Shown here one piece after another: positions 16,601 to 19,600 of a stretch of DNA of 64,000 nucleotides. Each line of letters begins with the position of its first letter. Position 1 is the first letter of the stretch. Location of the stretch: the NCBI GenBank assembly GCA_050575255.1, contig JBNZDD010013726.1, positions 2,735,763-2,799,762 of the forward strand, read 5' to 3'. This DNA is from Harriotta raleighana. Taxonomy: Eukaryota. The position numbers are program-made.

Positions 16601-19600
16601 GAAAATAAAACTTTGTCTCAGATTATGAACGGCAATACCTCAGTGTGAGTCAGCAGTTCAGTAGAGGTAGAGGGAGAATGACAACTTCTACAAGGTGCAT
16701 ACGGTAATAAAACAAAAATCACTGGGTAGATTGTCAGAACTGGCAAGTTAAGGGTCGTGGACCTGAAACATTGACTCACTTTTCTTCCTCCATAGATGCT
16801 GCCTGACCTGCTGAGTGTTCCCAGCGATTTCTGTTTTTGTTTCAGATTTCCAGTATCTGCAGTATTTTGCATGTTTTCACATGACAATAAACCTACTGAA
16901 CTTCACAGGATATCTCTATTTTTAATTACACTCTCATAACACAATCCTGGGGATAACCTTCTTTTATATATTTTAACATATAAATAGAATGTAGATCCAA
17001 ACATATAACACACAAAAAAGTCCTTAACTCCTTGTAACCTTCAGATGCTCAGCTACAATCACCAGTACTGACCCTGGGCAAGTTTCCTTACTCCACACGC
17101 CTAATAATAATCCCTCCAAAAAACTCCACGATAATAATAAATTGGTCATTTCAATCTAGGATGTTTGTGGGACACTGCTGTGTGCAATTGGCTGTCGTGT
17201 TTCGCCCACAAATATACAGTCAATTCACTTTACATTATATTCCGGTGAAGTGCTTTGAGACATCGATAAGATGTGAAAAGTGCTATATCAAAATGCAAGG
17301 ATTATTCTCATTATTATTCTTATTATATGATCCATGTTAAATAACCCACATTACTCTAACCTAACTCTGCAGCTCCTGAAGAAACACTACAGCATGCTGT
17401 ACTGAGGAAGATGTTTTTCTTCCGATAAAATCTCGGATATAAACATCATAGTGCTGAGGGTGAACCTGTCACCAGCACTGATCACCAGAGTTCAGACAAC
17501 ATCCAAACTGCTGAGCTTTGTTCTAGTACTTCACACAAGATCAACTGAACCTATTGATTAAATGCCAGTGATGAAATTACAACATTGTAACTGACAGGCA
17601 GCATCCTGCCTGCATTCAACATGTCCTTTATTGCTGTGATGATATTTCTCTAGCAGTTATTACAATCGAAGAAAGGAAACAAAATATAATTCAAACTTCA
17701 TACTGCAATGCACCAAATTCAAAATCACAACATGATAAGAGTTTACACTTTCAAATTCTAGTCACTGTAACAAAAAGAAATAAGGGACTGTTTCGATTGC
17801 CAAATATAGATTTAGAATCAAAAATAACTGGGCAGGTTATAAATGAAGAAAATTAAGAAAAGGAAGAGCTGTACGTGGGGTTGCATATTTTCCCCACAAA
17901 ATATACAGTCAACTCACTTTACAGTATATTCTGTGAAGTGCTTTGAGACGTCTCGAAGACGTGATAAGGCGCTCCATCAAATGCAAGAATCATTATCCTG
18001 CTCGGGATCTTACCTTCCGTTTATTCTGGAGTTTTACAACTGGCCTCAGAGATCTTGGTCGTTGTGGCAGGCCGTATCGAACTGAATCCACACTATATCG
18101 GACACTCGACACTGAACGCAAGTGTGAACGCAAATGCCCTGTGGTTTGTACACTATTCACTCCAATCATCTTTTTTTTGAAAAACAAAACAATTTCTGCC
18201 TCTTAAAATTTAAAATCTAGCTCCTGAGCTAACAGGATAAAAAATGCCAGATACTCTTGCACTGGTACTAAGGAATGGATCGGTTTGCACCTCGGTAATG
18301 CTTTACACCCCCACTCCCACCTTACAAACCAGTACGAGTGCTCCAGCTCCAGTCACCCTCTGAGGGGCACTGCCTCGAACATTTTTATTCTTTGTGACAA
18401 CCAATAGCAACCTGCTGCAGTGATGTCGACAGAAATGCAATTAACATGCTCTCCTAGTTCAGCAAATCATCGGAGCAGCTTGTTGCTTCTGAACAGCGAA
18501 GAGTAGTGAGTGCTGCATTGTGATGCGCTGAACCTGTGCCAGGTCTTATTCAGTGATACTTGTGGCCGCGTTCTTAAAAGTTGCAGTGTCACATTAAATG
18601 AATGTCCATTGTGTTTCAGTGCTTCACACACTGCCAGGACCTCAAAGGCACTATGTGCAATAAGAGAAACATTGGGGTATATCCACTGAACCTCAATAAT
18701 AACAACACAACAAAATGACATTGTTAGAGTTGCATATAGTTTTGTATAGTTTCTAGTAAGCCGCATATAATTTTGTTATTCACGCGGGGTAGCGCTTCAG
18801 GATGCTACCCTATGTCAAGTGCACTGTATAAATGCAAGTTGTTGTTGTACAACACACAGAAACAAATGCCATGCTCCCACCAAAACCACTATACCAAAGC
18901 CAGCCTTGACTTCAATGACAGAACTGAAATAGAAATAAGGCAATGCTGTTGCCTTAGCACTGCAGTCTTGAGGTGGGTCTACTGTCTGTCTCAGAAGGTC
19001 ACAGTGTTTGGAAAACACTGGACCTTCCACAAAATACTTAATAATTATAATTAATAATGTTTATTAAAATATGCAGTAACAACCCTTTTTTTTTAGAAAA
19101 TTCTGTGAAGCTCTTTGAGATGCCTCAGCAACATGATAAGGTGCTATACAAAGTGCAAAGATTATTATTACAAAAAGCATCACATGAATATTTTCAATCC
19201 CAAGGTCTGTAAAATCAGCTCATGCACTCAGACTTGCAGACGTTTAGTGGGTTTGCAGCTTTATGTTTTGTTTTTGAGAATGTTGTTGACCAAAGGCAGA
19301 CCTGACATCCAAAACTAAAATTTTCATGTCAACATTCAACAGACGTCAATATTGAAAGTGATCTGAGGGAGCTCGTGGGGAGAGGGTTGCGTCCAATGGA
19401 AACATTGTTTTGCGCAGTGCAGTTCTCCATAGCATGTGGCTTAATTATGGCATGACAAACTATAACCAGCTCTAGAGCAAGATACAGTAAAACCTTGTTT
19501 ATCCATGACTCGAATAATCGGAAAACCTGTTCAACTGCCATCTCAAAAAAAAGTCCTGATCCAACTAACCGGAAGTTATCCGGCGACGCGTTGAATGTCG

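What the first reader, a model, noticed from the sequence alone, without database searches (positions are those of the whole stretch)
18014..18620. Hidden internal first exon giving a Sec7-less EFA6As-type isoform in a probable cartilaginous fish
Seen: ATG at 18169 opens 52 basic, Arg/Ser-rich codons ending in AAG|gtaaga. This joins exon 10 in frame and gives a 382-aa protein with PH and coiled coil but no catalytic Sec7 domain. The upstream 18170-18620 is free of recognisable repeats, unlike its surroundings. Established: mouse EFA6A has a short neuronal isoform, EFA6As, lacking Sec7; I recall its N-terminus as MIGVNS...SVRY...PQRxRSL. Inference: a catalytic and non-catalytic pair from one locus would date to early jawed vertebrates, and this peptide would be a conserved targeting module.
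Basis: partly seen in the sequence, partly recalled or inferred. Interest (0 to 1): 0.72.

Follow-up and report, generated by a model that had tools for sequence, protein, structure and literature searches.

The report
Conserved start exon of Sec7-less EFA6
Inside an intron of a chimaera-like fish's EFA6/PSD1 gene lies an intact start exon matching the one that other vertebrates use to make a short protein without the enzyme domain, so it is an unannotated copy of a known feature.

Summary
On the minus strand, ATG 18169 opens 52 codons (MIGVNS...NKRK, pI 12) that end at AAG|gtaaga at 18014. They join exon 10 (16171) in frame. A count from coordinates alone gives 382 codons.

The gene (56561..3536, minus strand) is a 16-exon PSD1-like/EFA6 gene. 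Its closest match is Callorhinchus milii, at 75-100% per exon, so the source is a holocephalan-like cartilaginous fish.

The exon is not a chance ORF. A profile built from 19 named N-terminal exons of Sec7-less PSD isoforms (birds, a snake, teleosts, a ray) hit 1 of 2226 window ORFs, this one, at E 6.9e-11; the next best was E 2.8. All these isoforms join the same exon-10 residues (xLYxSIKNEKLQW). None of the 19 carries the Sec7 core motif.

Untested here:
- transcription and splicing in this species
- the mouse EFA6As sequence itself
- any "targeting" role; AlphaFold2 predicts no secondary structure (pLDDT 57)

The "repeat-free upstream" remark is true but not distinctive. This is a new member of a known kind, of modest interest.

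The parts
18014..18169 (-). Alternative first coding exon: ATG plus 51 codons, MIGVNS...NKRK, of a Sec7-less isoform
   Evidence: Searches give the sequence. Profile hit E 6.9e-11, 1 of 2226 ORFs. 43-60% identity to 19 named N-terminal exons. GC 0.468 and CpG o/e 0.95, against 0.457 and 0.43 for the pooled exons.
18008..18013 (-). Splice donor gtaaga following AAG
   Evidence: The frame hits a stop 7 codons into the intron (KVRSRAG*).
18203..18205 (-). In-frame TAA 36 nt upstream of the ATG
   Evidence: stop-to-stop ORF 18202-17996.
18170..18620 (-). Presumed 5' UTR or promoter region (unverified). An 'ag' sits directly before the ATG, there is an AATAAAA at 18389, and six upstream ATGs
   Evidence: Composition is not unusual. 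No transcription data were available.
16128..16171 (-). Exon 10 (VLYSSIKNEKLQWT plus 2 nt), the last residues of the Sec7 profile. It is the acceptor for the alternative exon
   Evidence: P0003 residues 800-814 lie between the HSPs. The same junction residues appear in all 19 named isoforms.
8261..8451 (-). Exon 11, the linker before the PH domain
   Evidence: 97% identity to Callorhinchus.
7489..7559 (-). Exon 12, start of the PH domain ([16 protein letters not shown]...)
6554..6708 (-). Exon 13, PH domain
   Evidence: Pfam PH_9 E 5.7e-11..
5109..5253 (-). Exon 14, end of the PH domain
4205..4348 (-). Exon 15, C-terminal (coiled-coil) region
   Evidence: The donor was placed by reading GAG|gtaaat in the ORF.
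3533..3775 (-). Exon 16, the C-terminal region with stop TAA
   Evidence: 96% identity over 81 aa to P0003.
22822..28075 (-). Exons 5-9, which encode the Sec7 domain and are bypassed by the short isoform. Approximate HSP limits: 28075-27881, 26403-26320, 24840-24682, 24359-24294, 22914-22819. Exon 9 ends at AAG 22822
   Evidence: Exon 7 matches Pfam Sec7 at E 1.1e-7.
17888..17997 (.). Copy of an interspersed repeat 16 nt beyond the donor. It is not part of the exon
   Evidence: Seven matches to other places in the window, 75-87% identity.

Best explanation
Window 18014-18169 (minus strand) is the orthologue, in a holocephalan-like cartilaginous fish, of the conserved alternative first coding exon of Sec7-less EFA6/PSD isoforms (the EFA6As type).

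Proposed mechanism. A transcript starts inside intron 9 of the PSD1-like gene. Translation begins at ATG 18169. The 52-codon exon splices from AAG|gtaaga to exon 10 at 16171 in frame. Exons 10-16 then add the last few residues of the Sec7 fold, the PH domain and the C-terminal coiled-coil region, giving 382 residues. Exons 5-9 are skipped, so the product has no Sec7 catalytic core and cannot exchange nucleotide on Arf6. By analogy with the mouse short isoform and PH-Ct constructs, it should bind PI(4,5)P2 membrane through the PH domain and remodel F-actin through the C-terminus, independently of Arf6.

Shown here: ORF, start, stop, donor, acceptor and frame; homology of the peptide and of the junction; the domain content of each exon.

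Inferred: the internal promoter, actual splicing and expression, and any function of the basic peptide, for which AlphaFold2 predicts no secondary structure.
For: - Sequence anatomy. Coordinate count of 382 codons.
- Gene identity and exon map. Sixteen colinear exons match Callorhinchus P0003 at 75-100% identity.
- Named Sec7-less isoforms found: one search found 599 proteins at E <= 1e-20 among 3314 candidates, with the best 120 listed. One search printed 29 named short ones, and 19 carry the MIG[VM]NS-type N-terminus joined to xLYxSIKNEKLQW. They comprise 2 birds, 1 snake, 15 ray-finned fishes and 1 ray.
- Controlled test: a profile of those 19 hits 1 of 2226 window ORFs, at E 6.9e-11 and 39.3 bits; the next best is E 2.8.
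- Pairwise BLASTP: E 1e-12 and 7e-8.
- Invariant residues across 19 rows: M1 I2 G3 N5 S6 R14 S19 V23 R24 R37 L41.
- Mutual exclusion with Sec7: of 163 named PSD proteins, 127 carry the Sec7 core motif and 19 carry IG[VM]NS (18 at residue 2, 1 in a partial model). None of the 19 has the Sec7 motif.
- Pfam: the short isoforms P0072 and P0149 match PH families only. Window exon 7 matches Sec7 and exon 13 matches PH_9.
- Published function, as passages read: PMC6522047 (EFA6As and EFA6D1/2s share PH and coiled coil and lack Sec7) and PMC6915736 (a short EFA6A isoform from a mouse embryo library resembles PH-Ct; the Ct bundles F-actin).
Against: - No transcript, junction or TSS data exist for this species.
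- No cartilaginous-fish PSD1-like short isoform is annotated in what I could search. All 26 chondrichthyan PSD1-like hits carry Sec7 and the shortest is 537 aa. Only P0024 from that clade is in the top 120.
- Two direct searches with the peptide failed. One search scored 0 of 122 candidates. One search gave 2 hits at E <= 0.001 among 1.84 billion representatives, both unrelated repeat proteins.
- The window exon is shorter than in bony vertebrates (52 aa against 66-76). It lacks their Cys in SLCSVRY.
- The upstream region has no CpG island or other distinctive composition and holds six upstream ATGs.
- An 'ag' directly before the ATG would allow in-frame use as an internal exon.
Confidence: 0.85

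Rival explanations
1. The 156-nt stretch is an in-frame cassette exon. It would be spliced between exons 9 and 10 of full-length transcripts and insert 52 residues into the end of the Sec7 domain. It would not be a first exon.
For: An 'ag' lies directly before the ATG, with a T-rich tract about 10 nt upstream. Exon 9 ends and the candidate starts in phase 0, so inclusion would keep the frame.
Against: None of the 19 named proteins with IG[VM]NS carries the Sec7 core motif. In 18 of the 19 the motif follows the initiator Met at residue 2. None of the 127 Sec7-bearing named proteins contains it.
Confidence: 0.06
2. The exon is inherited and still looks intact, but this lineage no longer uses it. 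It would be a silent relic without its own promoter.
For: No annotated Sec7-less PSD1-like isoform was seen in any of 26 chondrichthyan hits. The upstream composition is unremarkable. The exon is 14-24 residues shorter than in bony vertebrates.
Against: The ATG, open frame, consensus-like donor, in-frame junction and all 11 invariant residues are kept after more than 400 My of separation from bony vertebrates. The CpG o/e of 0.95 is above that of the flanking intron, 0.35-0.41. A ray expresses or is annotated with the homologous exon in a paralogue (P0149).
Confidence: 0.08
3. It is a chance open frame in an intron that happens to look like a basic peptide.
For: Arg/Ser-rich low-complexity peptides give spurious matches, as with the two hits.
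Against: Profile E 6.9e-11 with the next ORF at E 2.8 among 2226. The match starts exactly at the Met and ends at a donor that restores the known junction.
Confidence: 0.01

Closest known systems
Mouse EFA6As, the short isoform of EFA6A/Psd (Sironi et al. 2009, J Cell Sci 122:2108). The paper is not held; it is known here only through passages in PMC6522047 and PMC6915736
   Same: One EFA6A-type locus gives a long catalytic product and a short product with PH domain and coiled-coil C-terminus but no Sec7.
   Different: I could not see its sequence. The window model has 382 codons. Expression is unknown here.
Named Sec7-less PSD1 isoforms of birds (P0072 Patagioenas isoform X4, 392 aa; P0074), a snake (P0077 Candoia, 389 aa) and 15 ray-finned fishes (such as P0098, P0113, P0143)
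   Same: They start MIGVNS and keep SVR(Y), P.R.RSL(K/R)P and a basic tail. They splice to the same xLYxSIKNEKLQW exon, and Pfam finds PH only.
   Different: Their first exon is 66-76 aa against 52 here. The window lacks the LYTDLV / FPDLLGK..QDGQ segment and the Cys before SVRY, and has two extra residues (HL).
Mobula hypostoma 'PSD3 isoform X5' (P0149, 377 aa)
   Same: It is a cartilaginous-fish Sec7-less isoform with a short (55 aa) MIGVNSVQ... first exon and the same junction. BLASTP E 7e-8.
   Different: It belongs to the other chondrichthyan paralogue clade, separated by a 100/100 branch. The C-terminal half of the exon is not alignable.
EFA6D1s/EFA6D2s, short PSD3 isoforms (Fukaya et al. 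2016, J Comp Neurol). Only the passage in PMC6522047 was seen
   Same: They are Sec7-less products that share the PH domain and coiled coil.
   Different: They come from a different paralogue, and I did not see their N-termini.
Sec7-retaining short isoforms from other internal starts, such as Leucoraja isoform X3 (P0024, 537 aa)
   Same: They use an alternative start within the same gene family.
   Different: They start upstream of exon 5 and keep the whole Sec7 domain.

Membership tests
EFA6/PSD family gene (host gene) | Sec7 domain | tested here: met
   Window exon 7 matches Pfam Sec7 at E 1.1e-7, above the cutoff. Exons 5-10 are colinear with the Sec7 match of Callorhinchus P0003, residues 657-808.
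EFA6/PSD family gene (host gene) | PH domain of the PH_9 type after Sec7 | tested here: met
   Window exon 13 matches PH_9 at E 5.7e-11. Exons 12-14 are colinear with P0003 PH_9, residues 859-968.
EFA6/PSD family gene (host gene) | Conserved C-terminal (coiled-coil) region | tested here: met
   Exons 15-16 align to P0003 residues 1001-1128 at 84-96% identity. The coiled-coil property itself was not computed.
PSD1 (EFA6A) orthology group, as opposed to PSD2/3/4 | Groups with bony-vertebrate PSD1 to the exclusion of other paralogues | tested here: inconclusive
   In one search the proxy P0003 sits in a chondrichthyan 'PSD1-like' clade (100/99). That clade is sister (93/89) to a second chondrichthyan clade, which NCBI names either PSD3 or PSD1. 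No bony-vertebrate PSD2/3/4 sequence was in the tree and the root is at the midpoint.
EFA6As-type Sec7-less isoform | Own first coding exon with the MIGVNS...SVR...RSL motif, lying in the intron before the last Sec7 exon | tested here: met
EFA6As-type Sec7-less isoform | In-frame junction to the exon that encodes xLYxSIKNEKLQW | tested here: met
   Donor AAG|gtaaga and acceptor ag|GTTTTG are both phase 0. All 19 named isoforms have the same junction. This is a sequence-level test only.
EFA6As-type Sec7-less isoform | Lacks the Sec7 catalytic core | tested here: met
   Exons 5-9 lie upstream of the start. None of the 19 motif-bearing proteins has the Sec7 core motif. Pfam finds PH only in P0072 and P0149.
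EFA6As-type Sec7-less isoform | Transcribed from an internal start and spliced as predicted; neuronal expression | not testable with these tools
   No RNA-seq, CAGE or vertebrate genome collection was available.
EFA6As-type Sec7-less isoform | Sequence similarity to the mouse EFA6As N-terminus itself | not tested
   No named mammalian protein with this N-terminus was returned: 0 of 7 named mammalian hits. An unnamed 393-aa PH-only cluster (P0090) might be mammalian or human and was left unopened.

The most novel reading that the evidence does not exclude
The Sec7-less product, with its own N-terminal peptide, is an ancient and separately selected output of EFA6 loci. The MIGVNS exon is present in two chondrichthyan paralogue clades, in both teleost PSD1 copies and in sauropsids. 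It would therefore predate the paralogue split, possibly the vertebrate genome duplications. Its 11 invariant residues (MIG.NS, R, S, VR, R..(S)L) in an otherwise unstructured basic peptide would then mark a docking or phospho-regulated motif specific to the non-catalytic isoform. No one appears to have studied such a motif.
Probability: 0.4. Interest if true: 0.5.

Novelty: new member of a known kind. Interest (0 to 1): 0.3.

Why it matters
Gene models for the PSD1-like gene of cartilaginous fishes appear to miss this exon and the isoform it starts. None of the 26 chondrichthyan PSD1-like proteins seen is Sec7-less. Adding it corrects the annotation.

It also extends the non-catalytic EFA6 isoform, studied so far in mouse neurons, to the base of the jawed vertebrates. 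The peptide keeps 11 invariant residues over that distance although it is predicted to have no secondary structure. That argues for a function of its own and gives EFA6 researchers a short, defined motif to mutate.

Tried and rejected
- Word-based search with the 52-aa peptide against longer proteins: 0 of 122 candidates scored.
- Exhaustive HMMER search of 1.84 billion representatives with the peptide: 2 hits at E 1e-4 and 2e-4. One is a WD40-like repeat protein and the other a repeat protein; I judged both spurious from their sequences. My inference is that short isoforms are represented there by longer ones, or that a 52-aa match at about 50% identity falls under the threshold.
It was not repeated.
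- Sironi 2009 is not held under its DOI or its PubMed id.
- Literature searches on 'EFA6A / isoform / lacking the Sec7 domain' and 'EFA6 / internal promoter' returned 0 papers. 'EFA6As + Sec7' returned 1 paper. In print I therefore found nothing on the exon's sequence or its conservation. Subscription papers and supplements were not visible.
- Pfam on the peptide: 0 families.
- AlphaFold2 with the 19-row alignment: mean pLDDT 57.3, pTM 0.13 and no secondary structure, so no fold search was run.
- Promoter-type composition upstream is not distinctive.
- N-myristoylation was considered and rejected from the sequence, because residue 2 is Ile, not Gly. A 14-3-3 mode-1 motif was also rejected, because the Pro is at +3, not +2. 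Both motif definitions are recalled.
- The N-termini of P0036, P0037, P0080, P0081, P0092, P0101 and P0173 do not resemble the peptide and start directly before exon 11. I take them for other starts or intron read-in models.
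Full report
1. Observation.

On the minus strand the window reads ...tttttcaaaaaaaag ATG ATT GGA GTG AAT AGT... The ATG starts at 18169 and the stretch ends ...CAG AAT AAA CGG AAG|gtaaga at 18014. Translation gives 52 residues without a stop, MIGVNS...LQNKRK. The peptide has 8 Arg, 3 Lys, 8 Ser and a single acidic residue, with pI 12.0. An in-frame TAA lies 36 nt upstream, and the stop-to-stop ORF is 18202-17996. Seven codons past the donor the frame stops.

The next annotated-type exon begins at tgtgtag|GTT TTG TAC AGC TCC ATT AAG AAT GAA AAG at 16171. 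Both junction sides are in phase 0.

I placed the remaining exon limits by reading the splice sites around the tblastn matches. Every search used single exons or natural database proteins.

The window contains 11 single N positions. They were left alone.

2. The host gene and the organism.

Exon 11 (63 aa) retrieved 56 proteins at E <= 1e-5 among 73 candidates. Seven were Callorhinchus milii 'PH and SEC7 domain-containing protein 1 / psda' entries at 97% identity. Nineteen were shark, skate and ray 'PSD1-like' entries at 90-95%. A second chondrichthyan group came in at 69-73% and turtle and bird PSD1 at about 70%.

tblastn of Callorhinchus P0003 (1128 aa) against the window gives 16 colinear exons on the minus strand, from 56561 to 3536, at 75-100% identity. 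The candidate lies in intron 9 (22821..16172), 1.8 kb upstream of exon 10.

The window is therefore from a cartilaginous fish. It is closest to the elephant fish but not identical to it. I take it for a holocephalan, not for human.

Pfam places Sec7 at P0003 657-808 and PH_9 at 859-968. Window exon 7 alone matches Sec7 (E 1.1e-7) and exon 13 alone matches PH_9 (E 5.7e-11).

3. Is the exon real? First attempts failed.

A word-indexed search with the peptide against longer proteins scored none of 122 candidates. An exhaustive HMMER search of 1.84 billion cluster representatives gave only two hits, at E 1e-4 and 2e-4. Their sequences are unrelated repeat proteins. None of the 56 hits starts with this peptide. 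All 26 chondrichthyan PSD1-like hits carry Sec7, and the shortest has 537 aa.

4. The decisive result.

I searched the PH-to-C-terminus part of a named turtle PSD1 (P0043, residues 880-1205) against shorter proteins. This gave 599 proteins at E <= 1e-20 among 3314 candidates, with the best 120 listed.

I printed the N-termini of 29 named short ones. Nineteen carry the same kind of N-terminus:
- MIG(V/M)NS
- a Ser/Arg stretch
- SVR(Y)
- P.R.RSL(K/R)P
- a basic tail

In every one this is followed directly by xLYxSIKNEKLQW, the exon-10 residues. The 19 are two birds (P0072 Patagioenas isoform X4, 392 aa, a cluster of 48 sequences; P0074), a snake (P0077), fifteen ray-finned fishes, and a ray (P0149, Mobula hypostoma 'PSD3 isoform X5', 377 aa). 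The other ten have unrelated starts. Most begin just before exon 11 or inside Sec7.

A profile HMM was built from these 19 N-terminal exons, with no window sequence in it. It was searched against all 2226 six-frame ORFs of at least 20 aa in the window. It hit exactly one, 18202-17996 (minus strand), at E 6.9e-11 and 39.3 bits, aligned from the Met. The next best was E 2.8.

Identity of the window peptide to the 19 ranges from 20/47 (43%, the ray) to 30/50 (60%, the pigeon). BLASTP gives E 1e-12 and 7e-8 respectively. Eleven positions are invariant across the alignment: M1 I2 G3 N5 S6 R14 S19 V23 R24 R37 L41.

The exon's GC (0.468) is that of the gene's exons (0.457 pooled) rather than of the window (0.394). 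Its CpG o/e of 0.95 stands above the flanking intron at 0.35-0.41.

5. First exon or cassette?

An 'ag' directly precedes the ATG, and exon 9 ends in phase 0. In-frame inclusion between exons 9 and 10 is therefore formally possible.

The annotated proteins argue against it. I examined 163 named PSD-family proteins in hand. Thirteen were left out: ten unnamed entries, the query and the two spurious hits. Of the 163, 127 carry a Sec7 core motif and 19 carry IG[VM]NS. In 18 of the 19 the motif is at residue 2, and one is a partial model. None of the 19 carries the Sec7 motif. The exon and the Sec7 core are mutually exclusive in all models seen.

6. How it most likely works.

The exon is the start of a transcript that begins within intron 9. 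The product keeps only the last residues of the Sec7 profile (exon 10), then the linker, the PH domain and the C-terminal region. It cannot catalyse exchange on Arf6.

Passages read in PMC6522047 and PMC6915736 state three things:
- The mouse short isoforms EFA6As and EFA6D1/2s share the PH domain and coiled coil and lack Sec7.
- EFA6As affects dendrite formation, probably independently of Arf6.
- The EFA6A C-terminus binds and bundles F-actin when brought to the plasma membrane.

The same mode of action is the natural inference here.

The peptide matches no Pfam family. AlphaFold2 predicts no secondary structure (pLDDT 57.3). A 'targeting module' is therefore not shown. The conserved basic/Ser pattern would also fit a phospho-regulated or docking motif, which is inference.

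The upstream 451 nt has no special composition: 15% of all 451-bp windows have GC at least as high, and 19% have CpG o/e at least as high. It contains six ATGs and one AATAAAA at 18389. If a start site exists, it is probably close to the ATG.

7. The repeat remark.

17998-19099 has no second copy within the window. A repeat with seven further matches abuts the donor at 17888-17997. But only 17.5% of the window is covered by intra-window repeats, so the clean stretch carries little weight. No repeat library was available.

8. Age and paralogy.

I built a maximum-likelihood tree of the exon-10-to-end part of 30 named proteins. P0034 was dropped because it lacks the anchor motif. P0003, the window's proxy, sits in a chondrichthyan PSD1-like clade (100/99). 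The ray with the MIGVNS exon sits in a second chondrichthyan clade (100/100, branch length 0.4), together with entries that NCBI names PSD3, PSD3-like or PSD1. The two clades are sisters at 93/89.

The tree holds no bony-vertebrate PSD2/3/4 and has a midpoint root. Whether the second clade is true PSD3 stays open.

The exon occurs in both chondrichthyan clades, in both teleost copies and in sauropsids.

9. What stayed unchecked.

- The mouse EFA6As sequence. Sironi 2009 is not held. None of the 7 named mammalian hits has the motif. An unnamed 393-aa PH-only cluster that could be mammalian or human was left unopened.
- Any orthologous vertebrate DNA, dN/dS, RNA-seq or CAGE.
- Supplements of papers.
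- In the searchable library I found no text on the sequence or conservation of this exon.

10. Verdict.

It is an unannotated orthologue of a known, widely annotated alternative first exon, so it is a new member of a known kind and of modest interest. The one point of wider interest is that the isoform-specific peptide is conserved across jawed vertebrates, although AlphaFold2 predicts no secondary structure for it.

Noticed in passing
window 45651-47040 / 47042-48430; 35490-36568 / 36560-37639; 12750-12942 / 12960-13152; 9943-10088 / 10091-10214; 26655-26792 / 26795-26934: Near-identical tandem duplications (84-99.8% identity; the four cleanest are 96-99.8%) each abut one of the single N positions (47041, 36569, 12940, 10089, 26793). 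They look like false duplications at assembly joins rather than biology.
   Followed up: partly
window 46903-47004: A second copy of the 3' end of exon 3 matches P0003 residues 415-448 at 82%. It lies inside the 1.39-kb duplication above, so it is probably an assembly artefact and not an extra exon.
   Followed up: partly
window 17071-17322, 17888-17997, 40671-40976, 62573-62862, 55375-55520, 37692-37819, 7181-7293, 4527-4635: An interspersed repeat family at about 75-87% identity is scattered on both strands through the introns. It was not classified.
   Followed up: no
window 5260-5647, 25150-25788, 39535-39875, 15021-15359: A second interspersed family at about 69-77% identity gives long pseudo-ORFs rich in Pro/Ser/Leu, such as 14951-15517 (188 aa). 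It was not classified.
   Followed up: no
window 19579-20115: A CT-rich simple-sequence tract gives open frames in all three minus-strand frames (LSLSLS..., 108-179 aa) about 1.4 kb upstream of the exon.
   Followed up: no
window 48001-50000: This is the window's GC-richest 2-kb bin (0.459; CpG o/e 0.54, just below the 0.55 of bin 1-2000), with G-rich open frames at 49226-49730, just upstream of exon 3. It could mark another internal promoter, since Callorhinchus UniRef entries start near here (P0004-P0008).
   Followed up: no
proteins P0108, P0138, P0165 (salmonids): These Sec7-less isoforms carry 6-7 extra residues (AQLGKCR or VQCATR) between the MIGVNS exon and exon 10. That suggests a micro-exon or an alternative donor in salmonids.
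   Followed up: no
proteins P0028, P0149, P0152, P0168 against P0003-P0027: NCBI and UniRef names for the two chondrichthyan PSD paralogue clades are inconsistent. 'PSD1', 'PSD3' and 'PSD3-like' all occur within one clade.
   Followed up: partly
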